A stretch of 41,498 bases of DNA from a virus (lineage: Duplodnaviria; Caudoviricetes). Location of the stretch: the IMG/VR virus record IMGVR_UViG_3300037483_000113, positions 1-41,498 of that record. One strand, written 5' to 3'. Position 1 is the stretch's first letter. Each line of letters begins with the position of its first letter. Made by a program: the position numbers and the translations under genes. Of the stretch, positions 15,729 to 40,579 are shown in pieces. Under the pieces are notes generated by a model. It had not been told where the DNA came from. It did no database searches and was given only the letters and a program-made list of their open reading frames with translations.

Positions 15729-18309
15729 GGGCACGCTGCTTGACGCCATTTCGATTGCGGCACTCTTTGTCCCGCTGCCCGGCGTCAACGTGTTTTTGGC
15801 GGCCGCAATCCGCGCGAGCATTGTCATTTCTGCGTCCTACGCCAAGTCCAAGCTGGCCCGCTCGGGCGCGCTGGAGAACCAGATCGCGGGCTCGACGCTC
15901 AACGTGATGAGCAACGAGGCCGTGCTGCCCGTGGTGTACGGGACGGCCAAGGTGGGCATGATCCTGGCCGACGTGCAGCAGGACAGCGCACAGGTCAAGA
16001 CCATCGCCGTGGTCGGGGCGCTCTGCATGGGCTCGGAAGATGGGACCGGCATCGAGAGCGTCACGAAGGTCTACTTCGACGACGTACTGGCCATCGACGG
16101 ACCCACGGCCACCACGGGCGCGACAAACAACACGAACGTGCAAAGCCCGTGGAAGACCGGCACCACCTACGGGACGGACCTGTGGATACAGTACGGGCTC
16201 CAGTTGGGCGCGGACGCTCAGGCCGCCGACACGGAGCTGGTGAGTCGCTTCGCCAACTGGACCGCGACGGACGAGGGCGTGGGCGTGGCCTCGCTCGCCC
16301 TGCTGCTCTACTACAACGAGGAAGTGTGGACGACGGGCCGCCCGAACGTGACGGCGCTGGTCAAGGGCCAGAAGGTCTATGATCCGCGCACCACCACCAC
16401 GGTGTGGTCGGACAACCCGGCGCTTTGTATTCGGGACTGGATGACCTCGGTGCGCTACGGCATGGGCATCCCCGAGGCGCAGATCAACGACGCCTCGATT
16501 ACGGCAGCCGCCAACTACTGCGACGTGAGCGTGAGTATCCCGGGCCCGTCAACGCAGAAGCGATTCACCTGCAACGGTCTGGTGAACCCTGCCGACTCTC
16601 CGCTCGCCAACCTGCAACGGCTGCTGTCGTCCTGTCGTGGCGAGATCGTGCGCATCGGGAGCGAGTACCACCTGCAGATCCGGCAGACGGCCACCGCGGA
16701 AACCGTCACCCTCACCGAAAACAACATCATCGGTGATTTCGAGTTCTTCCGGGGCGGCATCGAAGAGGCGCCGAACCGGATCACCGCCACGTTCGTGGAC
16801 CCCGACCTCAACTACCAGCCCAACGATATGTCGTGGCCGGCGGCGGGCGCGGCGAACGCCTACCTGACGGCGGACAACAGCTTCAGCTCCCACCAGTTCA
16901 TCGAGCTGCCCTACACGAATGACCTCTACCGCGCTCAGCAGATTGGACAGACGCTGCTCAAGGAAGGCCGGGAGGATCTCGGTGTAGCCCTCACGGCCAA
17001 CCGTGAAGCACTCCAGTTCCAACAGGGCGACGTGGTGAAGGTCACGCACCCCACACCGGCGTGGACCGAAAAGCAGTTCTGGGTCCTCGCCATGGGCATC
17101 CTTCCGGACGGTAACGTGCGGATGGTCCTGCGTGAGTACGACGCCGACGCCTACACGCTGGACGCGCTCGCGGCCAAGGACGCGGCACCATCCACGAACC
17201 TGCCCGCCACTACGACCACGACGGCGCCCACGGGCCTGACCCTAACGGCCGACGCCACCACGGCAGAGGCCCTCCAGGACCTCACCACGGTTCCGCAGAT
17301 CCTCGTGGAGTGGACGGCATCGACCGACCCGTTCCTCGCGGGCTATCAGATCCGCTTGAAGGAGACGGCGGCGGCGGACTCCACCTACGAAGTCGTGGCC
17401 GCCCCATCCGCGAGCGCCGTGCAGGCGTACATCGGCAATGTGGCGAACGGGACGCAGTACACCGTCGGCGTCCGGGCGATGAACGCCATCAACGTGTTCA
17501 GCGCATGGGTGAGCGACACGATTACGGTGGGCACGTCGGAGCAGGTGGCGTCGGCCGGGCTGTCCGTGTTCCTCGACGGCGCCGACATGAAGGTGCGTCG
17601 GAGCGGCGGATCGGCCCAGAGTCTGTCCTACTTCGTGAAGGCGACCGAACCGAGCCTGGCCGAAGTCCAGGGCGGCACGGATAGCGCGTCCGCCACCGTG
17701 ACGGTCCACACGTTCTCGGCTCCGGGTACGCAATGGGTCGGCGTCCTGCTCTACACGGACGCGTCGTCCACCGTGAACGAGTCGGGCCTGTTCACCTTCC
17801 CGATCACCTATCAGGAACAGACGGCTGGCGTGCTGGGCGAGGCGAGCGGCGGCACGTCGGAGAGCACCTATGCGACCGGCGATATGCTCTACGCATCGGC
17901 CGCGGACACGCTGGCAAAGCGCACCATCGGGTCCGCGAGTGCACTGCTCCAGGTCCAGTCGGGCGTGCCCGCTTGGGACACGTCGCTGGACGGGTACACG
18001 GGGCACGCCGTGTACGACAACGGGAGCAAGGGCACGAACTTCAACTGGGACGCGAGCAACGGCAACATCCAGCGCGTGACGCTGACGGCCTCCGTGACGA
18101 TCACGCCGACGAACTTCGTCGCGGGTTCCCCGGCGGTGCTCATCATCGAGTACGGCGGGGCCTACACGCCGACCATTTCGTCCATGGACTACGGGGACAA
18201 CACCCCGACGTATTCCGCTGATTCCGCCAAGGCGGATTGGGTCCATGCCCTGCTGGTCGGGTCTGTCTACTTCGCCAGCGTGTCCACGGGGCACGTCAAC
18301 CCGACATGA
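15721..18309 (+). CDS. Central tail hub / host specificity protein (J-like) with an Fn3-like domain
   Basis: LPVVYG, VKGQKVYDPR, WSDNPALCIRD, AANYCD, RFTCNG, GDVVKVTH, YTVGVRAMN. Confidence 0.93.
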   Translation: MSKGTLLDAISIAALFVPLPGVNVFLAAAIRASIVISASYAKSKLARSGALENQIAGSTLNVMSNEAVLPVVYGTAKVGMILADVQQDSAQVKTIAVVGALCMGSEDGTGIESVTKVYFDDVLAIDGPTATTGATNNTNVQSPWKTGTTYGTDLWIQYGLQLGADAQAADTELVSRFANWTATDEGVGVASLALLLYYNEEVWTTGRPNVTALVKGQKVYDPRTTTTVWSDNPALCIRDWMTSVRYGMGIPEAQINDASITAAANYCDVSVSIPGPSTQKRFTCNGLVNPADSPLANLQRLLSSCRGEIVRIGSEYHLQIRQTATAETVTLTENNIIGDFEFFRGGIEEAPNRITATFVDPDLNYQPNDMSWPAAGAANAYLTADNSFSSHQFIELPYTNDLYRAQQIGQTLLKEGREDLGVALTANREALQFQQGDVVKVTHPTPAWTEKQFWVLAMGILPDGNVRMVLREYDADAYTLDALAAKDAAPSTNLPATTTTTAPTGLTLTADATTAEALQDLTTVPQILVEWTASTDPFLAGYQIRLKETAAADSTYEVVAAPSASAVQAYIGNVANGTQYTVGVRAMNAINVFSAWVSDTITVGTSEQVASAGLSVFLDGADMKVRRSGGSAQSLSYFVKATEPSLAEVQGGTDSASATVTVHTFSAPGTQWVGVLLYTDASSTVNESGLFTFPITYQEQTAGVLGEASGGTSESTYATGDMLYASAADTLAKRTIGSASALLQVQSGVPAWDTSLDGYTGHAVYDNGSKGTNFNWDASNGNIQRVTLTASVTITPTNFVAGSPAVLIIEYGGAYTPTISSMDYGDNTPTYSADSAKADWVHALLVGSVYFASVSTGHVNPT

Positions 18310-19076
18310 TCCCCGCCCTGATCGCCCGCCCGCTTCGGGCGTCCCTATACCCGCCCGTGGCGTCCGGCGCCTATGTCGCCATCTACGACCCCGACCGGCA
18401 AGGCTACTCGGACCTCGACACGCCCACGTCGATGGTGGATTACCTCGGCATCGTGGGTGACTTGACCGCCGGGTCCGGGAACGAGTTCGAGTATCAGGCG
18501 GCGGAAGCTGCTTTCGGCGGACAGGGCTGCATGGCCGCGTCCTCGGCGCAAACAGAGTCGATGATCGTCACCGACTCCACCCTGGCCGCGCTGGTCACCG
18601 GCGTCGGCTGGAGCTTCACCATGATCGGCGTCGTGGAGCCCGGGGACACCGGGTATACCGAGGAGGTCATGCCGATCCTGTACGGTGGCGGGCACTACAT
18701 CGGGCTCAAGTTCTTGAGTTCGACGCAAATGCAGGTCTACGCAAATGGGGCGACCGCGGCGGCGCAACTTCTCACGACCAACTCGCCGCAGCCCAGCAGC
18801 CTGGTCGGAAGCGCGCACATCTTCACCGTGCGCGCCAAGATGGCTTCGCCGCCCGCGTTCAATATCCGCGTAGACGGTGCCGCTCATTCGGTGAACAGCC
18901 CGACGCAGACGGGCGCGCTCAGCGGCGTGACGAGCATGGCCTACATCTACTCGCTCACCAGCGTTTCGGATTCCTTCGAGGGACGGGCGGCGTGGATGGC
19001 GTTCCTGGACTCATACCTGACGGACGAGGACTGCGCCAGAATCGAGGGCTACCTGGCAACCCGATACGGGATCTAA
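18306..19076 (+). CDS. Putative lectin/LamG-like tail receptor-binding protein
   Basis: Beta-rich; C-terminal LTDEDCARIEGYLATRYGI is typical of such tail proteins; ATGA coupling. Confidence 0.7.
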   Translation: MIPALIARPLRASLYPPVASGAYVAIYDPDRQGYSDLDTPTSMVDYLGIVGDLTAGSGNEFEYQAAEAAFGGQGCMAASSAQTESMIVTDSTLAALVTGVGWSFTMIGVVEPGDTGYTEEVMPILYGGGHYIGLKFLSSTQMQVYANGATAAAQLLTTNSPQPSSLVGSAHIFTVRAKMASPPAFNIRVDGAAHSVNSPTQTGALSGVTSMAYIYSLTSVSDSFEGRAAWMAFLDSYLTDEDCARIEGYLATRYGI

Positions 19077-19096
19077 CCCACTTCAGGAGGACCACC

Positions 19097-19378
19097 ATGA
19101 GCAGATCAGCATCCGTCGCCCGCCTCGCCAACAGCCGCATCGTGCTCGACCATTACGGCTGGCGCTGGGAGCAGATGAAGCCGTTCCTCGGCGCGGCGCT
19201 CGAAGCCGGGCCAGGCTCGATCATCCGAGCGTATCCGGGCCTGGACAAGGACGGTCACCCGGACATCCACTTCACGATCCAGAAGCCGGGCGAGAAGCCG
19301 GGCGAATTGCAGGCGCTGGGCGTGGAAGACGAGGGCTATAACTTCTCGTGGCCCTGTCCGCCGGCCTGCCCCGAGTAG
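19097..19378 (+). CDS. Small protein ending in NFSWPCPPACPE (candidate peptide precursor)
   Basis: AGGAGG RBS, ATG at 19097, 93 aa, C-terminal PCPPxC motif. Confidence 0.8.
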   Translation: MSRSASVARLANSRIVLDHYGWRWEQMKPFLGAALEAGPGSIIRAYPGLDKDGHPDIHFTIQKPGEKPGELQALGVEDEGYNFSWPCPPACPE

Positions 19379-19384
19379 CTGCAC

Positions 19385-19909
19385 ATGACATGGATCGCGG
19401 TCGCGTTGACGGTGGCTGGGGCAATACCGCTAGCCTTCGTGCTATGGGTACGCCCGCCGGTGCCGTATTGGCTGCTGGGCGCCGGGCTGTCCGCATCGTG
19501 GGTTGGTGACCTCATGATGTACCGGAGCGGCGGCGCGTGGGACGTCGCGTACCTCTGGCTCCCGCTCCAGTTCGGCCTCGTGCTCATGGGCCTGGCGCGC
19601 ACGATGCGTGATCGGGCCATCATCTTGTTCTGTGTCCCGGCGCTTGGAATCTTCTCCGCGTACCTGTCGGGACCACGCCCTGATATGGCGCTCACGCTGA
19701 TCGGTAGCTTGGCGGTCCTGTACTTGGCCGAAGGACGCGCGACACTCGCCCTCTACGTGTACTTCGGCCTCGGCACCGTGCTCTATTTCCTCATGGCCGC
19801 TCGGGCCGGTACGCCGGAGATCCTCCTGCCGTGGGCCGCGTATCAGGCGTGTCGGGTGATCGCCTACGCCGCCTTCGGGCGGGCGGTCTATCAGGCGGCG
19901 CGCTCATGA
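19385..19909 (+). CDS. Polytopic membrane protein (about 6 TM)
   Basis: Several hydrophobic segments; starts 6 bp after the PCPPxC gene. Confidence 0.8.
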   Translation: MTWIAVALTVAGAIPLAFVLWVRPPVPYWLLGAGLSASWVGDLMMYRSGGAWDVAYLWLPLQFGLVLMGLARTMRDRAIILFCVPALGIFSAYLSGPRPDMALTLIGSLAVLYLAEGRATLALYVYFGLGTVLYFLMAARAGTPEILLPWAAYQACRVIAYAAFGRAVYQAARS

Positions 19910-20352
19910 GCTACCTCGCGACGGAGCTGCGGCGCATCGGCCTATTCCTCGGGGCGATGTTCCGGGAGCGAAAGCTGGAGGCGGTCGAGACGCTGCTGGC
20001 TGTCCAGGCCCTTATCCTCGGAATGTGGCTGCTGGCACCGTGGTCGTCCTTCGGTGCCATCACGGGCGTCTACGATGCGCTGGCTCTCGTGCCCGAGGGC
20101 GTGTGGGGCGGCGTGTTCGCGCTGCATGGAGCGCTGCACCTTCGGGCTATCGACCGGGGCGACCTCGATTGGCGGCGGCGCTTCACGAGCGGGATCGTGC
20201 TGCTCTGGAGCATGATGCTCATGGGGTTTCTCTCCACCGCTCCGGCCTCGACAGTGACCCCCATGCACCTCCTGCCCGTGCTCGGCGGAATGTGGTGCTA
20301 CCATGCTCACTCACTCATCGCGGGCGACCGCAGGAAGGTACCCCGTGACTGA
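19906..20352 (+). CDS. Membrane protein (3-4 TM)
   Basis: ATGA coupling, hydrophobic helices. Confidence 0.75.
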   Translation: MSYLATELRRIGLFLGAMFRERKLEAVETLLAVQALILGMWLLAPWSSFGAITGVYDALALVPEGVWGGVFALHGALHLRAIDRGDLDWRRRFTSGIVLLWSMMLMGFLSTAPASTVTPMHLLPVLGGMWCYHAHSLIAGDRRKVPRD

Positions 20353-20683
20353 GCCTGTCCAGGTCGCGTTCGTGGCCTACGTGCTCCCCGCGCTGGTGTT
20401 CGGGCTGTTCGAGTTGCGCCGCTACAGGGCTACTGCCGCGATGAAGCAGGAGCACGCCGAGGCGAAGGCAAAGCAGGTCGCGGACGGTAGCCGGGTATCC
20501 GACGCGGAGATGCAGCGGCAGTTCCGCGACGAGATATGGGAGCGGTGGCGCGCGGTGAACGACGAGAACGAGGTGCTCCGAACTCGCGTGGGCACGCTGG
20601 AGCGAAAGATCGACGTCGTCATGGAAATCATCGGGCGCCACGGACTGCGGAGTGAGTTGCCGGAATGGCTGGAGGAGGCGTAG
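20345..20683 (+). CDS. N-terminal TM plus coiled-coil protein (lysis-region type)
   Basis: GTG start; TM VAFVAYVLPALVFGLF, then heptads NEVLRTRVGTLERKI. Confidence 0.7.
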   Translation: MTEPVQVAFVAYVLPALVFGLFELRRYRATAAMKQEHAEAKAKQVADGSRVSDAEMQRQFRDEIWERWRAVNDENEVLRTRVGTLERKIDVVMEIIGRHGLRSELPEWLEEA

Positions 20684-20687
20684 GCGC

Positions 20688-21005
20688 ATGACCGACCCCA
20701 AGCGCGTCCTGATCGGCAAGCGGTACGTGGACGACAAATTCGCCGCGACGGTGAAGCTCTTGGACGAGCGCGTGGCCGCCGTGCGCCGTGAGGAAGAGTT
20801 GTTTCGCTCCGGCCTCAAAGCCCACTTGGAAACGCTGAATCACGAAACGGAGCGGATCAACACCATCGCATCGGAGACTGTTTCTCAAGAAAAGTTTGAC
20901 GGGGCCATGAAGGCGATTGACGTGCAAATGAAAGCGATTGTCGGAGTGGTGGTCACGGCGATTCTCGCTGTGGCTGGATGGCTCATAATGGGAGGTGCGC
21001 CATGA
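20688..21005 (+). CDS. Coiled-coil protein with a C-terminal TM (holin-like)
   Basis: GGAGG RBS; C-terminal AIVGVVVTAILAVAGWLI. Confidence 0.72.
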   Translation: MTDPKRVLIGKRYVDDKFAATVKLLDERVAAVRREEELFRSGLKAHLETLNHETERINTIASETVSQEKFDGAMKAIDVQMKAIVGVVVTAILAVAGWLIMGGAP

Positions 21006-21100
21006 TCCAGATCATCGGGCTGGCCGTCGCCGTCGTGGCAATCATGCTCGGATGCTGGTATCTATGGCGGTGGCTCAAGGGCGCGGCGGACATGTGGTAG
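21002..21100 (+). CDS. 32-aa single-TM peptide
   Basis: GGAGG RBS, ATGA overlap, MIQIIGLAVAVVAIMLGCWYLWRWLKGAADMW. Confidence 0.55.
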   Translation: MIQIIGLAVAVVAIMLGCWYLWRWLKGAADMW

Positions 21101-21150
21101 GTGGCGAATGGCGCGGCCTTGAACGGCGCCAGATTGCAGGGAGGAGCAGA

Positions 21151-21432
21151 ATGAGTGTTCGAGCAAAGTTCCGGCTGAACAGTTTCACGACGGAGCTTCA
21201 CAGCCAGTACCCGCACCAGACCGAGAATGGTCAGCCCGACTACAGCAAGCCGGAGTCGGTGGAGAAGCGCACCCTCAACTTCACGCCCGTGTCTGGTGGC
21301 GAGGGCGAGGACAAGCTGTTCTGGGACGCCAGCCCTTCCGGGAGCCTACAGCTCGGCGTCGTGAACCAGGATGCGTGGGAACACTTCGCGCTGGGCAAGT
21401 CGTACTACCTCGACTTCACCCTGGCCGACTGA
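21151..21432 (+). CDS. Conserved small phage protein
   Basis: GGAGGAG RBS; MSVRAKF...FWDASPSGSLQL...GKSYYLDFT pattern recalled from other phages. Confidence 0.8.
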   Translation: MSVRAKFRLNSFTTELHSQYPHQTENGQPDYSKPESVEKRTLNFTPVSGGEGEDKLFWDASPSGSLQLGVVNQDAWEHFALGKSYYLDFTLAD

Positions 21433-21502
21433 TGACTGCCCAACGGCGAAGCGGGCTCGGCCGACATGTCGGTTTCGTAATCGCCGGCGCGGCGGATCTG
21501 CC

Positions 21503-21847
21503 ATGAGAGCGAAGCGTAGCCTGGCCCGCCAGATCGGCGAGGCGATGAGCGATGAGCAGGGAAAGTTCTCCATCGGGCGCCTGCTGCTTGTTCTGCACAT
21601 CACCCAGAACTGGGTGTGGGTCAACGCCATCATGTTCGACTGGATCACGCCCGCCGATTCCGACGTGCTCAATCTGCTCATCGGCTCGCTGGACGTGACC
21701 ATCTTCATGGTTCTCGGTGCCTGGGTGATCGGCCCGCGCTCGTTCCAGTACCTGTTCCCGCAGATCGGCAAAGCGATCCAGGGCGCGGGCGGGTTGGTCG
21801 GTCGCCTGAAGGGCACCGACAACGTCAGGACCGACGACGAGCGGTGA
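21503..21847 (+). CDS. Putative holin (2 TM)
   Basis: GKFSIGRL followed by two TM segments, directly upstream of the endolysin; alternative start 21545. Confidence 0.65.
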   Translation: MRAKRSLARQIGEAMSDEQGKFSIGRLLLVLHITQNWVWVNAIMFDWITPADSDVLNLLIGSLDVTIFMVLGAWVIGPRSFQYLFPQIGKAIQGAGGLVGRLKGTDNVRTDDER

Positions 21848-22416
21848 GCACCCTCTCCCTCTCCTACGAGCCCGTCTACCGGGCGCTCCATCCCCAGGGC
21901 ACCTACTGGTACGACACGGTGCGCGTCCCCCGGGTGGGCTGCTGCCTCCACTACGACGGGTCCTCGTCGGACGCGGGCGGGCTATCGTGGCTCCAGGGGC
22001 TGCCCGTGAAAGCCAGCTACAACCTCGTGGTCCTCGATGACGGATCGTGGGGGATCATCGCCCCGCTGGATACTGCCGCATGGCACGCGGGCAAGAGTCG
22101 GTCCAGCGACCCCACGCGGCTGCCCTACCCCGACAACATGGCGAACCATGCCTTCTACGGGGTCTGTGTCCTGACCAACGACCTGGTAGACGTGACGACC
22201 CTCCAGTCCACCACGGCGGCGTGGCTCTGCGCCCGGCTCTTCGCTCGCCACGGCTGGCCGCTCACCGACGGCTACCGGATCACGACGCACCGGGCTGAAG
22301 CGTGGGCGAGGGGTCGGAAGAAAGACCCCGAGGGTGATTTCCTGGACAACCCCATCTGGCAGGCCGACGACGTGCGGGGTCTGCTGCCCTCTTTTCGAAG
22401 TGTACAGCCGTTATGA
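21844..22416 (+). CDS. Endolysin, N-acetylmuramoyl-L-alanine amidase (Amidase_2-like)
   Basis: LHYD, ASYNLVV..DG, AWHAG, ITTH...RKKDP zinc-amidase motifs; GTGA coupling. Confidence 0.9.
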   Translation: MSTLSLSYEPVYRALHPQGTYWYDTVRVPRVGCCLHYDGSSSDAGGLSWLQGLPVKASYNLVVLDDGSWGIIAPLDTAAWHAGKSRSSDPTRLPYPDNMANHAFYGVCVLTNDLVDVTTLQSTTAAWLCARLFARHGWPLTDGYRITTHRAEAWARGRKKDPEGDFLDNPIWQADDVRGLLPSFRSVQPL

Positions 22417-22778
22417 ACTACTGTCGGAAGTGCCAGAGCGACTACGAGAAGCCGGGGACGTGCAACTGCTTCGCGGAACAGGCACCGCGCGAGGACGTGG
22501 CCCCCGTCGCTCCGATCTACCTGCCCGTCCTGCCCCTGTACCCTGGGTACCCATGGCACCCGAGTGCCCCGACGTATCCGGTCTATCCGTGGTGGCAGTA
22601 TCAGCCGACGTGCGGCGGCGAGGTGACCGTGACCTACACGCCCAGCGAGGGGACGACGTGGTACCGCGCCCTTCCGGTGGACCCGAACGCGCCCACGTCC
22701 GTCTACATCACGGGAGACGATATCGCGGAGATGCACGCCTCGGGGCGGCTGTCCTACACGGGTGGCGGGTCCGCGTGA
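22413..22778 (+). CDS. Hypothetical Cys/Pro-rich protein
   Basis: CxxC..CxC N-terminus; coupled at both ends. Confidence 0.6.
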   Translation: MNYCRKCQSDYEKPGTCNCFAEQAPREDVAPVAPIYLPVLPLYPGYPWHPSAPTYPVYPWWQYQPTCGGEVTVTYTPSEGTTWYRALPVDPNAPTSVYITGDDIAEMHASGRLSYTGGGSA

Positions 22779-23368
22779 AAACCGTCCTCACCCTCCTGGC
22801 CGGCGCCGTCGCGTGGATCGTCCTGTCGTGGGCGCTCACGCCACGGACACCCGACCAGTCCGGCGCGCTCGCCCGGCTGGATTCGGCAAGGGTCGAAGCG
22901 GAGCATCGGGCGGATTCTGTAGTCGCGGAGCTGGACGCGATGCGGGACACGATGCCCCGGGTCCTCGCAGCTGCGGCAGAACGTGAGCAGGAAGCCCAGC
23001 GTAGGGCCTCTAGGGCCACGGAAGCGCAGCGGGCTACCGGAGGGACTGTACGGGCGCTCCTCGACAGCCTGGGGGCGTCCACGGAGGCGTGGGATGAGCA
23101 CATGGCGGCTGACTCGGCTATCGCAGAGGCGAACGAAGCCGAGAAGGCGAGCATCCGGGACCGGGCAATCCTCTGGGAGCGACGGGCAACGCTGGCGGAG
23201 ATCGCGCTGGACGCTGAGCACGATGCCCACGAGGCGGCGAACGCGACGCTGGTCGAGGCAATGGACCGGCTCGGGCTGGCGGAACGCAGGGCACAGAAAG
23301 CCGAGCGGAATAGCCGCCTGCTCATCGGGGGCGCGGTGGCCGCGCTGGCTATTGGCGTGATGCGCTGA
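22775..23368 (+). CDS. Spanin-like protein (N-terminal TM, coiled coil, hydrophobic C-terminus)
   Basis: GTG start, end of the lysis cassette, long Ala/Glu/Arg helix. Confidence 0.65.
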   Translation: MKTVLTLLAGAVAWIVLSWALTPRTPDQSGALARLDSARVEAEHRADSVVAELDAMRDTMPRVLAAAAEREQEAQRRASRATEAQRATGGTVRALLDSLGASTEAWDEHMAADSAIAEANEAEKASIRDRAILWERRATLAEIALDAEHDAHEAANATLVEAMDRLGLAERRAQKAERNSRLLIGGAVAALAIGVMR

Positions 23369-23540
23369 TCCGCTCCTCCACCAGTCTCCGGATCGCCAGC
23401 TCCGCTTCCGTGTCGATCGGGTAGCGGTCCGCGCCCCGCATGCGTCCATGCACCGTCACCCGGTGGACACCGAGCGCGCGGGCTGCTGCGCTCGGGCCAC
23501 CAAGGCGGGTGACGAGGGCGGTGTATTCGCGGGGGGTCAC
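23349..23540 (-). CDS. Small HTH DNA-binding protein
   Basis: GGPSAAARALGVHRVTVHGRM; GTG at 23540 overlaps the upstream stop. Confidence 0.75.
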   Translation of the reverse strand: MTPREYTALVTRLGGPSAAARALGVHRVTVHGRMRGADRYPIDTEAELAIRRLVEERISASRQ

Positions 23541-23776
23541 AGCCACAGCCGTGCGGGCTTTTTGCCACACGTCCCGCACGCCAACAGGTCCGCGTGGGGC
23601 TCGTTCATCATGTCGGGCGTCACCTTCATGATGGGCTGGCCGCTGATGTCGCATCCGGTGAAGCGTGCGGAAGCGCCAAGGTGCTCACCGCAGTAGCATG
23701 CGCCGCCGTCCGTGAGGTACACGCCGTCCGGGTCGTCGCGGCGGAGGTCTGTCTTGTGCGCGTGCGTGGCGTTCAT
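23537..23776 (-). CDS. Hypothetical Zn-binding protein
   Basis: CxxH and CxxC; GGAG RBS; coupled to neighbours. Confidence 0.75.
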   Translation of the reverse strand: MNATHAHKTDLRRDDPDGVYLTDGGACYCGEHLGASARFTGCDISGQPIMKVTPDMMNEPHADLLACGTCGKKPARLWL

Positions 23777-23976
23777 CGTCCGCTCCCCGCCACTGGTTCG
23801 GCCATCGCCTCCGCCATCTCTTGGAGGGTTGTCGCTACCGCCATCACGTCCTCCCTCGTCGCATCGAAATCCACCTGTCCGCCCGCCATATCAAACTTGT
23901 GCCAGCGCTCGACGGCATCAATCAGCAGGTCGGTGACCTCATCGCGGGCCTCGCCGGACATTCTGGGATCTTGCAT
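23773..23976 (-). CDS. Hypothetical protein
   Basis: GGAG RBS 6 nt before ATG 23976; alternative start 24003. Confidence 0.7.
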   Translation of the reverse strand: MQDPRMSGEARDEVTDLLIDAVERWHKFDMAGGQVDFDATREDVMAVATTLQEMAEAMAEPVAGSGR

Positions 23977-24019
23977 CGTCTGCTCCGTCGATGGCGGCTC
24001 CATCGTCCGCCGTGCCTAT

Positions 24020-24048
24020 AGTATAGCACTACAGGGAGGGGGAGTCAA
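24020..24048 (-). promoter_or_regulatory. Near-consensus leftward sigma70 promoter
   Basis: Minus strand TTGACT, 17-bp spacer, TATACT, with TGn extended -10. Confidence 0.85.
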
Positions 24049-24361
24049 CAACTATATTTCGGTGCGGGATAGGGACTTACGCGGTCGGCCCGGCTCTGGC
24101 AGATCGTCGGAGGGATCGGAGTAGGGACGGCTGTCGTACAGGCGGTCGTGCCGGGCACCTAACCGCATCATCGTCACGATCTCGTTCACGGAGGCCTCGC
24201 ATTCGCCCGCCACGCCCCACGACGCTGGCGCCCACCGTGTCCCGTCCACCACGGACGGCTCCCCGGCACCACAACGCCCCCGTCGCGGTCCTGGGGCAAC
24301 GTCGTGCGTCGGGCGTTTTCGTTGGGAAGCCAACACTTTCCAATTCATCGGCGACAAACAC

Positions 24362-24402
24362 TTGACACCCGCACCGGCCCACCGTAGCGTATGCCATACA
24401 AT
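24362..24402 (+). promoter_or_regulatory. Rightward early promoter
   Basis: TTGACA (24362-67), 17-bp spacer, TAGCGT; a second -10-like TACAAT at 24397-402. Confidence 0.7.
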
Positions 24403-24425
24403 CGACACCCGGAGGACGGACCCGC

Positions 24426-24701
24426 ATGAGGACGTGGACCAAAGCCCTCGACCAGCAAGTCATGGCCGCGATGACGGGCCGCGCACGGCTGGACGCGCTC
24501 CTGATGGACCGTGGCTATCCGACGGCCCGCTCCGTGGCCATTGAACTGGGCGAGGACGAAACCAACGTGTCCCGCTGTCTGGCTGGCCGGACCCGCCCCA
24601 GGACGCCGACGATGGCGCGCATCCGCGACGGGCTGGCGCGGCTGGCCGGGCTCGAGCGAAGCGCGGTGGATGCACTACTCGGGCCGATAGAGGGCGTATG
24701 A
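24426..24701 (+). CDS. Cro-like XRE HTH regulator
   Basis: TARSVAIELGEDETNVSRCLAGRTRP; GGAGG RBS; first rightward early gene. Confidence 0.8.
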   Translation: MRTWTKALDQQVMAAMTGRARLDALLMDRGYPTARSVAIELGEDETNVSRCLAGRTRPRTPTMARIRDGLARLAGLERSAVDALLGPIEGV

Positions 24702-25357
24702 AATCCGTGGAGGCGTGGCATTTCTTGGCCGACAGCGGGAAACTACGAGATAGCAGACCGGCGGTGGACGGGGAGTGGCTGTTGCACACCGGCCCTGCCG
24801 TGATGTGCAAAAGCGGGCTCCATGCGAGCCGGAAAGTGACCGACGCGCTGAGTTACGCGCCGGGCTCGATCCTGTGCCGCGTCGAGTGTCGTGGGGTGGT
24901 GGAGGAACGGGGCGACAAACTCCTCTGCCTGGAGCGCAAGATCATCTGGCGGATCGACGCGACCGACGTGCTTCACCGTTTTGCCCGGATGTGTGCCCTT
25001 GATGTCATTGGCCTCTGGGACGCACCTGCTGTGGTGGTGGAGTTTCTGAATACCGGGGACGCGTCGTTAGGGGCTGCTGCGGGGGCTGCTGCGTGGGATG
25101 CTGCGTGGGCTGCTGCGTGGGCTGCTGCGGGGGCTGCTGCGAGGGCTGCTGCGTGGGCTGCTGCGGGGGCTGCTGCGTGGGATGCTGCGTGGGCTGCTGC
25201 GGGGGCTGCTGCGAGGGCTGCTGCGTGGGCTGCTGCGTGGGATGCTGCGGATGCTGCGAGGGCTGCTGCGTGGGATGCGAGGGGGGCAAGGCAGGAACGT
25301 AGGTTGGTTGCACTCGCATATGCGGAGCACAAGCGAGTGCAGGGAGGTGGCGTATGA
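24698..25357 (+). CDS. Phage protein with an SGLHAS domain and an AAW/AAR repeat tail
   Basis: CKSGLHAS....AL.YAPG..LCRVE......DKL pattern; RFARMCA; Ala-rich repeats. Confidence 0.85.
   Translation: MKSVEAWHFLADSGKLRDSRPAVDGEWLLHTGPAVMCKSGLHASRKVTDALSYAPGSILCRVECRGVVEERGDKLLCLERKIIWRIDATDVLHRFARMCALDVIGLWDAPAVVVEFLNTGDASLGAAAGAAAWDAAWAAAWAAAGAAARAAAWAAAGAAAWDAAWAAAGAAARAAAWAAAWDAADAARAAAWDARGARQERRLVALAYAEHKRVQGGGV
25070..25279 (+). repeat. 12-bp coding tandem repeat (about 17 units, G[C/A]TGCTGCG[T/G/A]GG)
   Basis: Seen directly; encodes AAAW/AAAG/AAAR/DAAW. Confidence 0.95.
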
Positions 25358-25575
25358 TCTGCGTAGAGGGCAGGGTGCCCGGAGCCACGGACAGCGACAC
25401 GACCGACAGGCGCGAACAGCCGGGTGCCCTGCCCTACCGCGACATCATGGCCGCCGTCCACCACTACGGACGGGTCTGCCGGGCGCACGCGCCTGACGAG
25501 GTACAGGAGGCCGCCCACGCGAAGGTGGCGCGGCTGGTACTGGACGCGGTGTATCCGCTCGGGGGTGGCCGATGA
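25354..25575 (+). CDS. Hypothetical protein
   Basis: GGAGG RBS; ATGA coupling at both ends. Confidence 0.65.
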   Translation: MICVEGRVPGATDSDTTDRREQPGALPYRDIMAAVHHYGRVCRAHAPDEVQEAAHAKVARLVLDAVYPLGGGR

Positions 25576-25859
25576 CCGGCGGCACCATGTACCGCACCCT
25601 CGACGGCCAGACAGTCGTGGGCGTGGCAGACACCCACTACTGCCGGGGCTGCGACGGGAACGGATCGAAGCGCGGTCGGCCCTGCGGTTCCTGCGCTGGA
25701 TCCGGGCGCCTGCTGAATGCCGACCAGTACGTCTGGCCCGTGCCGGTGGTGCCGGTGGAAGACATGCCCGAAGGGGAGGCGGCGCCGGAGTGCCTCCAGG
25801 AGGCGACCACACGCGAACAGCCGGTCGCCCGTCTCCCCTTCGCGGCAGCCCGACGATGA
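25572..25859 (+). CDS. Protein with a DnaJ-type zinc finger
   Basis: CRGCDGNG...CGSCAGSG. Confidence 0.72.
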   Translation: MTGGTMYRTLDGQTVVGVADTHYCRGCDGNGSKRGRPCGSCAGSGRLLNADQYVWPVPVVPVEDMPEGEAAPECLQEATTREQPVARLPFAAARR

Positions 25860-25957
25860 TGAGCGAGATGTGTCGCATGCATGACTTTGTACCGGGGAGC
25901 CAACGGGGGCCAGCAAGGATCCGCCCGGAAGTTGCCACCGAAGATCGGAGACCAACC

Positions 25958-26404
25958 ATGAACAAGCTGACAGTGAGGCATCTGCGGAAGGCGGGCGCGT
26001 GCTCGGATCAGGTGAGGTTGTTCGAGCGGACGTTCCCTAACGGCGTGCGTCCGACGATGAGGGCATGGGCCAAGGCGTGGGCCGCCGGGCTGGACGTGTT
26101 CTGGTGTGCGTCGCTGCTCAGGGGTCCGGCGTTGGCCGAGTACGAGCGGGTCAGGGGTCCGGCGTTGGCCGAGTACGAGCGGGTCAGGGGTCCGGCGTGG
26201 GCCGAGTACGAGCGGGTCAGGGGTCCGGCGTGGGCCGAGTACGAGCGGGTCAGGGGTGCGGCGTGGGCCGAGCACGAGCGGGTCACGGGTGCGGCGTGGG
26301 CCGAGTACGAGCGGGTCAGGGGTCCGGCGTTGGCCGAGTACGAGCGGGTCAGGGGTCCGGCGTTTACGAAGGCGCTACGGCAGACCTTGGACGGGGAGGG
26401 CTGA
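25958..26404 (+). CDS. Phage protein with 11-aa tandem repeats
   Basis: GGAG RBS; LRKAGAC..QV.LF...FP N-terminus, then RGPAxAEYERV x7. Confidence 0.85.
   Translation: MNKLTVRHLRKAGACSDQVRLFERTFPNGVRPTMRAWAKAWAAGLDVFWCASLLRGPALAEYERVRGPALAEYERVRGPAWAEYERVRGPAWAEYERVRGAAWAEHERVTGAAWAEYERVRGPALAEYERVRGPAFTKALRQTLDGEG
26120..26362 (+). repeat. 33-bp coding tandem repeat, 7 full copies plus a partial copy
   Basis: Unit AGGGGTCCGGCGT(T/G)GGCCGAGTACGAGCGGGTC, contiguous with no spacers. Confidence 0.95.
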
Positions 26405-38467: not shown

Positions 38468-40579
38468 ATGTCGAACACGACCGTCACGGTCTCCGAAACC
38501 GACGTCACCGAAGTCACGATCTCCACCGTCGCCCCGTCCGCCACCTCCATCCGGAACGTGGCGATCTCCGCGGTCGCACCGAGCGCCGGGCAGGCGCTGA
38601 TTACCACGAGCGCCACGGCGGCCGCCTGGGCCGACATCGCCACCCAGGCCGAACTCGAAGCGTGGGTTGGCTCCACCAACATCACAACGCTCGGCACCAT
38701 CAGCACGGGCACGTGGAGCGCCACCACCATCGCCACCACGAAGGGCGGGACGGGCCTGACGAGCTACGTCCTCGGGGACGTGCTCTACGCCTCGGCCGCC
38801 AACGTCCTGAGTGCCTTGGCCGGGCAGACCACCACCACGCGCAAATTCCTGCGGCAGACGGGCGACGGTGCGCTCTCCGCCGCCCCGGCATGGGACACGC
38901 TCACCGCCGCAGACATCTCGGGCGGCACGTTCAACGCGGGCACGTATAGCCTCGCGGGTTCGACGCTCACGCTGGCTGATACGCTGGCTGGTGCTCCCAC
39001 GTGGTCCAGCACACAGAGCCTCGACACTTCGGGCAACGCAGCGACCGCTACCCTGGCCGCCACCGTCACGGTGGTGGACTCCACGTCCGCCACCTGCTCG
39101 GTCGCCCTGTTCGACGCCGCCACGGGCTCCCTGGCCGCGAAGACGGACGCGGGCCTGACCTACGCCGCGACCACGGGTATCCTGACGGCCACCGGCTTCT
39201 CCGGCCCGTTGACGGGCGACGTTACGGGCAACGTGACCGGGTCCTCGGGCTCCACGACCGGCAACGCCGCCACCGCGACCGCCCTTGCGACCGCCCGCGC
39301 CATCAACGGCGTGGACTTCGACGGCACGGCGGCGATCACCGTGACGGCTGCGGCGGGTACCCTGACCGGCACCACGCTTGCCGCCACCGTGGTCACGTCC
39401 AGCCTGACCAGTGTGGGCACGCTGGCGTCCGGGGCCGTCCCTGCGTCCTTGGTCACCGCCGGCTCGTTCGGCTCGGGCGACTACACGTTGACCGGCAAGC
39501 TCACGTTCGCGGGCACGCCGACGCTCACGGACGCGTCGGTTGGCTTTGTGGCGGCCAACGGCCTGACCATCCGCGGCATTGCGGGCACTACGTACCAACT
39601 CGCCCTGGTGAGCAAGAGCAACTCGGCGGTGGTGATCGGGATCGCCGACTCGAGCCTCGAAGTCACGATCACGCAGGACACCACGATCAGCGGGCGGCTG
39701 TACGTACAGAGCACGGGGTTCGCCTCGATCATCGACCGGAACCTCCAGATCGGGAATGGCGCGCTGACCTCCGGGGCCGGACGCCTGATCGTGGACGGCA
39801 ATACCACCGCGTCCACGGGCCTCGCTCAGCAGGGGTACATCTCGGGAGCCCTGATCGCTGCGGCGAACTCTGACAGTCTGTACGGCTTGAACGTCGCCCC
39901 CGCGTTCACCCCGGGCGCGTTCACCGGCGTGACGCAGTACGGGGTCAAGATCGGCGACGTTGCGGGTGGCGCGACGAACTACGCGCTGCACACGGGCACG
40001 GGCTCCGTACTGTTCGGCGGGCTGGTCACGGGCTCGGCCGGCTTCTCCGGCGCGCTCAACGGCACCGTGGGCGCCACTACCCCGGCTGCGGGGGCGTTCA
40101 CGACGCTCACGGCCGGGGATGTTGTTTCCGCGGCCAAGTCCGCAGACGCGCTCACGACCCTGTTTTCGTTCCGCAACGCCAGCGCGGGAACGGCTGCGGG
40201 GACGCGATTCCGAATTGGCAACGCCGTCAACGAGGTCGGGTTTTTTATCGACGTTTACGGGTCCTCCCACGCGACCCTCGCCTATCGCGTCAACATCATC
40301 AACAACTACGCGGCCACGCTCGCGCTCGGAACCAACGGCACGTCGCGGTGGGTGATCACTTCGGTCGGCCATCTCCTGACCGCCGCGGACAACACCTACG
40401 ACATCGGGGCTAGCGGAGCGACCCGCCCCCGGGATCTGTACCTGGGACGGAACGCAATCATCACCGGCACGCTCTCCTGCGCCGCCCTCACCACGAACGG
40501 CGGCCTCCAGACCTTCGGGGGCAATGACGGCGCTGCGTGCCCGGCAGGCTTCCGCTACGTGCTCGTACCCAACGCATGA
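38468..40579 (+). CDS. Long fibre protein (tail or head fibre)
   Basis: Thr/Ala/Gly-rich; GNAATATALATARAINGVDFDGTAAIT, GDVTGNVTG, DNTYDIGASG..RPR fibre motifs; AGGAG RBS. Confidence 0.88.
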   Translation: MSNTTVTVSETDVTEVTISTVAPSATSIRNVAISAVAPSAGQALITTSATAAAWADIATQAELEAWVGSTNITTLGTISTGTWSATTIATTKGGTGLTSYVLGDVLYASAANVLSALAGQTTTTRKFLRQTGDGALSAAPAWDTLTAADISGGTFNAGTYSLAGSTLTLADTLAGAPTWSSTQSLDTSGNAATATLAATVTVVDSTSATCSVALFDAATGSLAAKTDAGLTYAATTGILTATGFSGPLTGDVTGNVTGSSGSTTGNAATATALATARAINGVDFDGTAAITVTAAAGTLTGTTLAATVVTSSLTSVGTLASGAVPASLVTAGSFGSGDYTLTGKLTFAGTPTLTDASVGFVAANGLTIRGIAGTTYQLALVSKSNSAVVIGIADSSLEVTITQDTTISGRLYVQSTGFASIIDRNLQIGNGALTSGAGRLIVDGNTTASTGLAQQGYISGALIAAANSDSLYGLNVAPAFTPGAFTGVTQYGVKIGDVAGGATNYALHTGTGSVLFGGLVTGSAGFSGALNGTVGATTPAAGAFTTLTAGDVVSAAKSADALTTLFSFRNASAGTAAGTRFRIGNAVNEVGFFIDVYGSSHATLAYRVNIINNYAATLALGTNGTSRWVITSVGHLLTAADNTYDIGASGATRPRDLYLGRNAIITGTLSCAALTTNGGLQTFGGNDGAACPAGFRYVLVPNA

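What the first reader, a model, noticed from the sequence alone, without database searches (positions are those of the whole stretch)
19097..19909. PCPPxC small protein plus polytopic membrane protein heading the lysis cassette: candidate peptide-signal module
Seen: a 93-aa ORF with a strong RBS and no signal peptide ends in an acidic linker then YNFSWPCPPACPE, which could form a small disulfide or cyclic peptide. It is followed 6 bp later by a roughly 6-TM protein that is translationally coupled to further membrane genes leading to holin and endolysin. Unverified recollection: bacterial loci, notably in Bacteroidota, pair small proteins ending in PCPPxC with a similar membrane protein and a histidine kinase/response regulator. 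This phage has no kinase. Inference: a captured ligand plus processor/receptor pair used for phage-phage communication, lysis timing or interference with a host two-component system. It has no visible resemblance to arbitrium (no TPR receptor).
Basis: partly seen in the sequence, partly recalled or inferred. Interest (0 to 1): 0.85.

Follow-up and report, generated by a model that had tools for sequence, protein, structure and literature searches.

The report
Phage signal–receptor pair beside lysis genes
Next to its cell-bursting genes this phage carries a small cysteine-tailed protein and a predicted seven-helix membrane protein, both likely distant relatives of an uncharacterised bacterial signalling cassette, and they likely act as a phage-specific signal and receptor that would adjust when infected cells burst.

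Summary
The two genes are real and paired. The 93-aa protein has an invariant CPP-x(1-3)-C tail (14 of 14 homologues; the first Pro in only 6). The 174-aa protein is predicted with high confidence to have seven helices, not six, in a GPCR/rhodopsin-like N-out arrangement with conserved polar residues that probably face outward. The pair is adjacent in 9 virus records (sipho- and podo-like) and 3 metagenome contigs, in the late/lysis region. None of the 9 records has a kinase; one adds a lone receiver domain. Both proteins are remote homologues of the first two genes of a Bacteroidota cassette (small protein, 7TM, sensor-less kinase, NarL regulator). In one quartet of phages the tail sequence follows the 7TM allele rather than its own core, but the overall test was not significant. 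Best reading (0.4): a lysis-released, allele-specific ligand and a receptor that retimes lysis. Binding, export and output are all untested, and there is no signal peptide. It is not agr or arbitrium. Eight literature searches found no description. This scan has noted the same kind of module before, on other phages and bacteria.

The parts
19097..19378 (+). Small protein, 93 aa: predicted beta-alpha-beta-beta core (low confidence) plus a flexible tail ending YNxSxxCPPxC; putative ligand; no signal peptide
   Evidence: (pLDDT 52); remote homology to bacterial cassette small proteins
19337..19375 (+). Coding stretch of the conserved tail (Y81 to E93) with Cys87 and Cys91; candidate disulfide loop and specificity determinant
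   Evidence: C87, P88, P89 and C91 invariant in 14 of 14; disulfide inferred, not shown
19385..19909 (+). 7TM membrane protein, 174 aa, N-out/C-in, with conserved S38, D42, W52, Q62, Y126, W150, Y153, Q154, R157; putative receptor
   Evidence: pLDDT 97, pTM 0.91; Z 11-12
19906..20352 (+). Multi-TM protein, 148 aa, overlapping the 7TM stop codon (weak phrog_8980, unknown function); similar genes in L001, L002, L115
20345..20683 (+). Single-TM plus coiled-coil stub, 112 aa; candidate output partner standing where the bacterial kinase's TM and coiled coil stand (similar architecture only, no detectable homology)
   Evidence: hhalign 2%, E 0.024
20688..21005 (+). Coiled-coil protein with a C-terminal TM helix, 105 aa, same late cluster
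   Evidence: no family hit over cut-off
21503..21847 (+). Holin-like membrane protein, 114 aa (inferred from position and hydrophobicity)
   Evidence: no family hit
21844..22416 (+). Endolysin, N-acetylmuramoyl-L-alanine amidase
   Evidence: Pfam Amidase_2 E 1.5e-13; PHROG endolysin E 1e-9

Best explanation
The two genes are a conserved phage module, likely taken from a bacterial signalling cassette, in which the small protein likely acts as an allele-specific ligand and the predicted seven-helix protein likely acts as its receptor, and together they would retime lysis. Shown: the pairing, the late/lysis-region position, the conserved tail and the absence of a kinase. Predicted: seven helices, N-out topology and an outward-facing polar pocket. 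Inferred steps: (1) the small protein is made late and, having no signal peptide, escapes when infected cells burst; (2) outside the cytoplasm its two Cys close a short loop, and the YNxSxxCPPxC tail docks in the outer pocket of the 7TM protein in neighbouring cells infected by a phage of the same allele; (3) without a kinase, the receptor passes the signal by helix contact to the adjacent single-TM/coiled-coil protein and/or the holin; (4) lysis is delayed when many kin-infected cells are bursting, as in T4 lysis inhibition but with a dedicated protein signal.
For: Pairing: all 4 new true 7TM loci found by 7TM queries (L002, L108, L115, L116) have a CPP-tail gene directly upstream. Of 102 motif-scan loci, 9 had the motif at the end of a 55-140 aa ORF, and all 9 are followed by a multi-TM gene: 8 of the phage family (E <= 2e-42) and 1 of the bacterial type. 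Receptor-like anatomy: seven helices at pLDDT 97; best structural matches are a designed GPCR-like fold (Z 12.3, rmsd 3.5, 172 aligned), a rhodopsin (Z 11.1, rmsd 3.5, 169) and an adhesion GPCR (Z 11.1, rmsd 3.6, 167). Loops 1, 3, 5 and the C-terminus carry 1.4-2.3 K/R per sequence against 0.3-0.5 for the others; D42, W52, W150, Y153, Q154 and R157 lie at the predicted outer ends of helices 2, 3 and 7. Link to signalling: the best of 6 hits of the phage 7TM profile in 201 Bacteroidota genomes is a 7TM gene directly before a sensor-less kinase and a NarL regulator; both hits of the small-protein profile are CPPxC proteins before a multi-TM gene; a full-length 7TM alignment to 28 bacterial proteins gives E 2.5e-4, and E 1e-7 for a 17-sequence subset. 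About 9 of 30 bacterial small proteins have a signal-like N-terminus, which suggests action from outside. Specificity: window/L001 cores are 75% identical, but their 7TMs only 32% and their tails differ (FSWP, VSHP); window/L002 cores are 23% identical with 7TMs 73% and similar tails (FSWP, YSWL); L001/L115 cores are 24% identical with 7TMs 53% and the same tail VSHP. Position: in the late/lysis region in all 9 virus records; directly before a holin-like gene in L020, L029 and L116.
Against: No phage small protein has a signal peptide (13 of 14 have N-terminal hydropathy <= 1.7; the exception, 2.6, is the core helix), nor do about 21 of 30 bacterial ones. In a diderm host a 10-kDa protein would have to cross the outer membrane, and the host is unknown. 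Tail versus 7TM similarity over 10 loci is not significant (Mantel rho 0.24, p 0.11), whereas core versus 7TM is (rho 0.59, p 0.0004), and the tail abuts the 7TM gene, so linkage alone could produce the quartet. Homology to the bacterial cassette is remote: there was no significant match to 3 or to 120 closer-knit Bacteroidota 7TM proteins, and tail-trimmed small-protein cores gave only 2% and 33%. Z 11-12 is within the range of common helical bundles, and Foldseek found nothing at E <= 0.001. The stubs show no homology to kinase N-termini. Late-region position is shared by many unrelated accessory genes. An endolysin family hit near the pair was obtained only for the window, L001 and L108; L002 has a near-identical copy of L001's gene.
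Confidence: 0.4

Rival explanations
1. Cell-internal module: the small protein stays in the cytoplasm as a subunit or a thiol/metal sensor (CPPxC dithiol) of the 7TM protein, and the complex is a multi-pass antiholin or a superinfection-exclusion factor acting only in the infected cell.
For: No signal peptide in the 14 phage small proteins or in about 21 of 30 bacterial ones. Genes touch or overlap (gap -4 to +14 nt in 11 of 11 measured), as for subunits of a complex. An unrelated family uses an internal CPPxCP in a Cys-rich, probably metal-binding setting (label recalled). Four of 9 records carry an integrase, which would suit a lysogen-protecting role.
Against: About 9 of 30 bacterial homologues have signal-like N-termini. 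The window has no integrase.
Confidence: 0.25
2. Host two-component hijack: the phage pair plugs into or jams the host's own copy of the cassette. The phage 7TM protein would pair with a host sensor-less kinase, or the small protein would act as agonist or antagonist of a host 7TM protein.
For: The bacterial cassette is common (37 of 301 genomes; multi-TM gene next in 28 of 30 loci; HisKA_3-like H-box within the short flank in 15 of 30). L116 places a lone receiver domain in the same cluster (PF00072 E 8e-7, below cut-off).
Against: No close bacterial relative of the phage 7TM protein was found in the 201 Bacteroidota genomes searched or by one DNA pattern over 185,579 genomes (one chance hit). 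Eight of 9 records have no receiver domain. A late-region gene is poorly placed to reprogramme host transcription (inference). The host is unidentified, so its cassette could not be looked for.
Confidence: 0.2
3. agr-like maturation: the 7TM protein is a peptidase/exporter that cuts and cyclises the tail, and a receptor elsewhere reads it.
For: Small gene plus membrane gene layout; a conserved tail behind a variable core.
Against: No conserved Cys (best 34%) and only a 62% His that the window's own protein lacks. No AgrB match in 9 of 9 records, with a weak control. No kinase in the phages. The fold is GPCR/rhodopsin-like.
Confidence: 0.07
4. Virion structural or tail-assembly protein that merely follows the tail genes.
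For: It lies 20 nt after the last tail-region gene; no sigma-70 promoter or terminator-like site was found on the + strand in 18000-24500.
Against: The pair occurs in phages with tape-measure genes (window, L001, L002) and in phages with ejection-type genes (L108; L024 and L116 share phrog_5880). There is no PHROG hit, and bacterial homologues sit in signalling operons.
Confidence: 0.04

Closest known systems
Uncharacterised bacterial cassette: CPPxC small protein, 7TM protein, sensor-less HisKA_3 kinase, NarL-type regulator (Bacteroidota; noted by earlier scan reports, rebuilt here; no paper found)
   Same: Same first two genes in the same order; remote homology of both proteins; same tail motif (CP..C in 27 of 29).
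   Different: No kinase in 9 of 9 phage records and no regulator in 8 of 9; the 7TM protein is shorter (174 vs about 206-250 aa); it sits beside lysis genes; TM/coiled-coil stubs stand in place of the kinase.
T4 lysis inhibition (holin T, antiholins RI and RIII; PMC6832632, passages read)
   Same: Proposed output: an extracytoplasmic cue of neighbouring phage activity delays holin action.
   Different: T4 senses adsorbing virions through a periplasmic antiholin. Here there is a dedicated small protein and a 7TM protein, and no PHROG match to T, RI or RIII appeared among the 36 ORFs scanned.
agr3 locus of Clostridioides difficile phage phiCDHM1 (PMC3901668, abstract and outline read)
   Same: A phage carrying the input part of a bacterial peptide-signalling system without its regulator.
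   Different: That locus has AgrB, AgrD and the kinase AgrC. Here there is no AgrB match and no kinase, the tail has two Cys, and the protein families are unrelated.
Arbitrium (AimP, AimR, aimX; PMC9232636, search listing and start of abstract only)
   Same: Phage-encoded, probably allele-specific peptide/receptor pair (if the best explanation holds).
   Different: AimR is a soluble DNA-binding regulator of the lysis-lysogeny choice. Here the receptor is a membrane 7TM protein in the late region, there is no signal peptide, and the window has no integrase.
Microbial rhodopsins and GPCR 7TM domains
   Same: Seven-helix N-out bundle, Z about 9-12 over 160-174 residues.
   Different: No retinal lysine (no column above 13% Lys), 6-14% identity, no G protein; a shared fold shows neither descent nor function.

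Membership tests
Bacterial CPPxC-7TM-kinase-NarL cassette (undescribed) | Small protein homologous to the cassette's first gene | tested here: met
   96.6% with tail (the tail was a selection criterion); tail-trimmed 33%, E 4.6e-4, reversed control E 0.67; 2 of 2 genome hits are cassette-type. Weak but consistent; an earlier shallow test gave 2%.
Bacterial CPPxC-7TM-kinase-NarL cassette (undescribed) | 7TM protein homologous to the cassette's second gene, directly downstream | tested here: met
   176 columns, 43%, E 2.5e-4; 17-sequence subset 94%, E 1e-7; reversed control E 0.25; top genome hit is a cassette 7TM. Not detected against a narrower bacterial set.
Bacterial CPPxC-7TM-kinase-NarL cassette (undescribed) | Sensor-less histidine kinase and NarL regulator in the locus | tested here: not met
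   HATPase_c in 0 of 9 virus records; receiver domain in 1 of 9, below cut-off, not the window. Seven of the 9 records are under 90% complete.
agr quorum sensing | AgrB maturase (catalytic Cys/His, recalled) | tested here: not met
   PF04647 in 0 of 9 records (weak control, 1 of 14 below cut-off); no Pfam family for the 7TM protein; no conserved Cys.
agr quorum sensing | AgrC kinase | tested here: not met
agr quorum sensing | Processed cyclic thiolactone peptide | not testable with these tools
   needs LC-MS
Arbitrium | Secreted propeptide with a signal peptide (recalled) | tested here: not met
   N-terminal hydropathy maximum 0.7
Arbitrium | Soluble TPR/HTH receptor AimR | not tested
   No targeted search; none of the 36 ORFs scanned was so annotated
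Arbitrium | Temperate phage with a lysis-lysogeny switch | tested here: inconclusive
   No tyrosine or serine integrase in the window; tyrosine integrase over cut-off in 4 of 9 records
T4 lysis inhibition | Holin T and RI/RIII antiholin homologues | tested here: inconclusive
   No such PHROG hit among the ORFs scanned; the holin-like gene has no family
T4 lysis inhibition | Signal-dependent delay of lysis | not testable with these tools
   needs infection or cassette expression assays
Microbial rhodopsin / GPCR | Seven-helix N-out bundle | tested here: met
   (predicted model)
Microbial rhodopsin / GPCR | Retinal-binding Lys in helix 7 | tested here: not met
   No column above 13% Lys; helix 7 has conserved Arg157

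The most novel reading that the evidence does not exclude
Diverse phages have captured the ligand and GPCR-like receptor of an undescribed bacterial signalling system, dropped the kinase, and wired the receptor to the lysis machinery, giving a kin-specific, lysis-released protein signal with swappable alleles that lets phages time bursting by the density of their own kind.
Probability: 0.3. Interest if true: 0.92.

Novelty: categorically new. Interest (0 to 1): 0.74.

Why it matters
Known phage communication rests on soluble receptors deciding lysogeny (arbitrium), captured agr genes, or virion adsorption (T4). A dedicated protein ligand with a membrane 7TM receptor in the lysis region would be a new route, usable also by phages with no integrase. 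The family is large (150 representatives at 50% identity) and has no library entry. The phage version strips a widespread, uncharacterised bacterial cassette down to its two unknown genes and supplies natural allele swaps, so ligand-receptor specificity becomes directly testable. The rating 'categorically new' refers to the parts and their wiring; the function is unproven.

Tried and rejected
Complex prediction of the 7TM protein with the full-length small protein gave no answer (ipSAE 0.00 twice, controls not folded); it is used neither for nor against binding. AlphaFold of the small protein was low-confidence (pLDDT 52) and was not fold-searched. Foldseek against PDB and BFVD found nothing at E <= 0.001. 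Pfam, PHROG and NCBIfam gave no family for either protein; five Pfam families each hit only 1 of 143 members. No tblastn match in 50,697 GenBank phage records. No RNA holder was listed (no evidence either way). Host not identified: 30 look-ups of 7TM or small-protein clusters gave no organism, and the terminase is only about 50% identical to the nearest GenBank phages. Dropped as chance or unrelated: 93 of 102 motif loci failed the terminal-ORF test, among them many internal CPPxCP matches of another family and three bacterial cassette loci with 29-aa tails (L070, L074, L082); L109, L110 and L117 are one stop-ridden stretch; L113 and L114 have no 7TM profile hit; 5 of 6 genome hits are unrelated. 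L060 and L029 were left out of the Mantel test as near-duplicates. The stub-versus-kinase comparison was not significant. The broad 7TM alignments had no stretch conserved enough for the locus finder, so neighbourhoods are known for 12 loci only, not for the 150 representatives. Literature: 8 searches found no description of either family; subscription papers and supplements were not covered.

Full report
Setting. The window is a complete 41,498-bp virus record with direct terminal repeats. It has terminase, portal, protease, capsid, tape-measure and tail genes, 64-70% GC, and no tyrosine or serine integrase. The host is unknown; the terminase is about 50% identical to its nearest GenBank relatives.

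Observation. ORF 19097-19378 (93 aa) follows a strong RBS, has GC3 0.86 like its neighbours, lacks a hydrophobic N-terminus and ends DEGYNFSWPCPPACPE. ORF 19385-19909 (174 aa) begins 6 nt later. Overlaps or gaps of at most 4 nt link it to four further membrane genes up to 21100. Gaps of 50 and 70 nt and a soluble 93-aa gene then precede a holin-like gene (no family hit) and an Amidase_2 endolysin. Neither protein matches Pfam, PHROGs or NCBIfam or any GenBank phage record (7TM protein).

Small protein. Four close homologues (69-86% identity) and nine from loci give 14 sequences of 65-103 aa. C87, P88, P89 and C91 are invariant; the spacing is CPPxC in 11, CPPxxC in 2 and CPPxxxC in 1; the preceding residue is Pro in only 6. 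The model is poor (pLDDT 52) but suggests a small alpha/beta core with a free tail. The Atlas's nearest clusters are 87-92-aa hypothetical proteins, mostly Bacteroidota (score 0.92-0.93).

Membrane protein. A profile finds 150 representatives at 50% identity, 83 at E <= 1e-10. With 143 sequences AlphaFold gives pLDDT 97, pTM 0.91 and seven membrane helices (the first one kinked). The best structural matches are a designed GPCR-like fold (Z 12.3, rmsd 3.5, 172 aligned), a rhodopsin and an adhesion GPCR (both Z 11.1). These scores are within the range of common helical bundles, and Foldseek has no hit at E <= 0.001. Charge bias gives N-out/C-in: 1.4-2.3 K/R per sequence in loops 1, 3, 5 and the C-terminus, against 0.3-0.5 elsewhere. 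S38, D42, Q62, Y126, W150, Y153, Q154 and R157 are 91-97% conserved; no Lys or Cys is, and the one His column (62%) is missing in the window's protein. That argues against a rhodopsin or an AgrB-like protease and for a binding pocket. Its outward orientation is inferred from topology, not measured on coordinates.

Pairing. The pair is adjacent in 9 virus records (window, L001, L002, L020, L024, L029, L108, L115, L116) and 3 short metagenome contigs (L040, L060, L097). Starting from the 7TM side, 4 of 4 new true loci had the tail gene directly upstream; L113, L114 and the L109/L110/L117 stretch were chance pattern hits. Starting from the motif, 9 of 102 loci had it at the end of a 55-140-aa ORF (two repeat records already counted), and 9 of 9 were followed by a multi-TM gene. 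The records include tape-measure phages and phages with ejection-type genes, and 4 of 9 have an integrase over the cut-off. All place the pair after virion genes and near holin-like genes; endolysin family hits were obtained for the window, L001 and L108 only. A TM plus coiled-coil stub overlaps or directly follows the 7TM gene in L001, L024, L040 and L108, lies one gene later in the window, L002 and L115, and lies upstream in L020, L029 and L116 (read by eye). No record has HATPase_c (0 of 9) or AgrB (0 of 9). L116 has a lone receiver domain two genes upstream (E 8e-7, below cut-off).

Bacterial counterpart. L066 and L074 show small protein, 7TM, HisKA_3 kinase with a single TM, and NarL regulator; in L074 other ORFs intervene before the kinase. 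A bacterial small-protein profile hits 37 of 301 genomes of the phylum of G009 (Bacteroidota). Of 30 loci taken, 28 have a multi-TM gene next, 15 show a HisKA_3-like H-box within the short flank, and about 9 small proteins have signal-like N-termini. Homology tests were mixed. Negative or weak: 7TM against 3 or 120 narrower Bacteroidota sequences, E 0.85 and 0.77; tail-trimmed cores against 3 sequences, 2%. The 96-97% scores with tails are inflated because the tail was the selection criterion. Positive: against 28 diverse bacterial 7TM proteins a 176-column alignment, E 2.5e-4 (a 17-sequence subset chosen for an N-x-W motif, E 1e-7; reversed control E 0.25), and tail-trimmed cores E 4.6e-4 (reversed 0.67). 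Blind genome searches put a cassette 7TM at the top of 6 hits (E 1.5e-4 per genome) and cassette-type small proteins in 2 of 2 hits. I take both proteins as remote homologues.

Allele pattern. Window and L001 share a 75% identical core but 32% identical 7TM proteins and different tails. Window and L002 share 73% identical 7TM proteins and similar tails on 23% identical cores. L001 and L115 share a tail and 53% identical 7TM proteins on 24% identical cores. This is what ligand-receptor specificity would give, but it is one quartet, the tail abuts the 7TM gene, and over 10 loci the tail-7TM correlation is not significant (rho 0.24, p 0.11) while core-7TM is (rho 0.59, p 0.0004).

Mechanism. Most likely (0.4) the small protein is a ligand released at lysis, its Cys-looped tail binds the outer pocket of the 7TM protein in kin-infected cells, and the receptor, lacking a kinase, acts through the stub or holin to delay lysis, in the manner of T4 lysis inhibition (PMC6832632, passages read). 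Release, disulfide, binding, partner and output are all inferred. The missing signal peptide and a possible outer membrane are the main problems. Rivals are a cell-internal antiholin or exclusion complex (0.25), hijack of a host cassette (0.2), agr-like maturation (0.07) and a virion role (0.04).

Comparison and novelty. It fails the defining features of agr (compare phiCDHM1, PMC3901668, abstract read), arbitrium (PMC9232636, listing only) and rhodopsins, and it shares only two of four genes with the bacterial cassette. Eight searches of the open literature found no description (passages of the review PMC13389391 had no match for 'membrane receptor' or 'transmembrane'). Earlier, unchecked notes of this scan describe the bacterial cassette and five similar phage cases. 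They gave me the stub, T4 and phiCDHM1 leads and are not counted as evidence. Verdict: a real, widespread, undescribed two-gene module; interest 0.74.

Noticed in passing
L116:5376-7436: In this phage a TM/coiled-coil stub, a lone receiver-domain protein (PF00072 E 8e-7, below cut-off) and a second TM stub precede the small-protein/7TM pair and a holin-like gene; the record has no kinase.
   Followed up: partly
L128 (same place as L125), downstream of the 7TM gene: A bacterial cassette in which a roughly 74-codon TM stub without a kinase domain lies between the 7TM gene and the NarL regulator, resembling the phage stubs.
   Followed up: no
L126:1414-2912: A bacterial multi-TM gene flanked by two homologous CPPxC small proteins, one without and one with a signal-like N-terminus.
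   Followed up: partly
L118:715-1467: The cassette's first position holds a 251-codon Cys-rich, lipoprotein-like ORF ending in a Tyr-Asp-x-Ser tail without CPPxC.
   Followed up: no
L032-L106 (many loci, e.g. L075, L078): An unrelated family of about 180 aa carries an internal YNxSWSCPPACP in a Cys-rich setting (DUF2284-like, label recalled and not checked); it confounds motif scans.
   Followed up: no
window 22775-23368: A 197-aa protein with N- and C-terminal hydrophobic segments and a long helical middle after the endolysin; spanin-like by eye, no family hit; similar genes in L001, L002, L020, L029.
   Followed up: no
window 24698-25357 and 25424-26404: Two early-region ORFs with low-complexity peptide repeats (Ala/Trp-rich units; repeated EYERV-type units).
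   Followed up: no
window 38468-40579: A 703-aa Thr/Ala-rich gene with a weak tail-fibre PHROG hit lies far from the tail module, near an HNH-like gene at the record's end.
   Followed up: no
window 22413-22778: A 121-aa protein with an N-terminal CxxC...CxC motif and a Pro/Tyr-rich middle, overlapping both the endolysin and the spanin-like gene.
   Followed up: no
L115:8628-9500: A DNA methyltransferase-like gene (by eye) sits between the holin-like gene and a transglycosylase-like gene.
   Followed up: no
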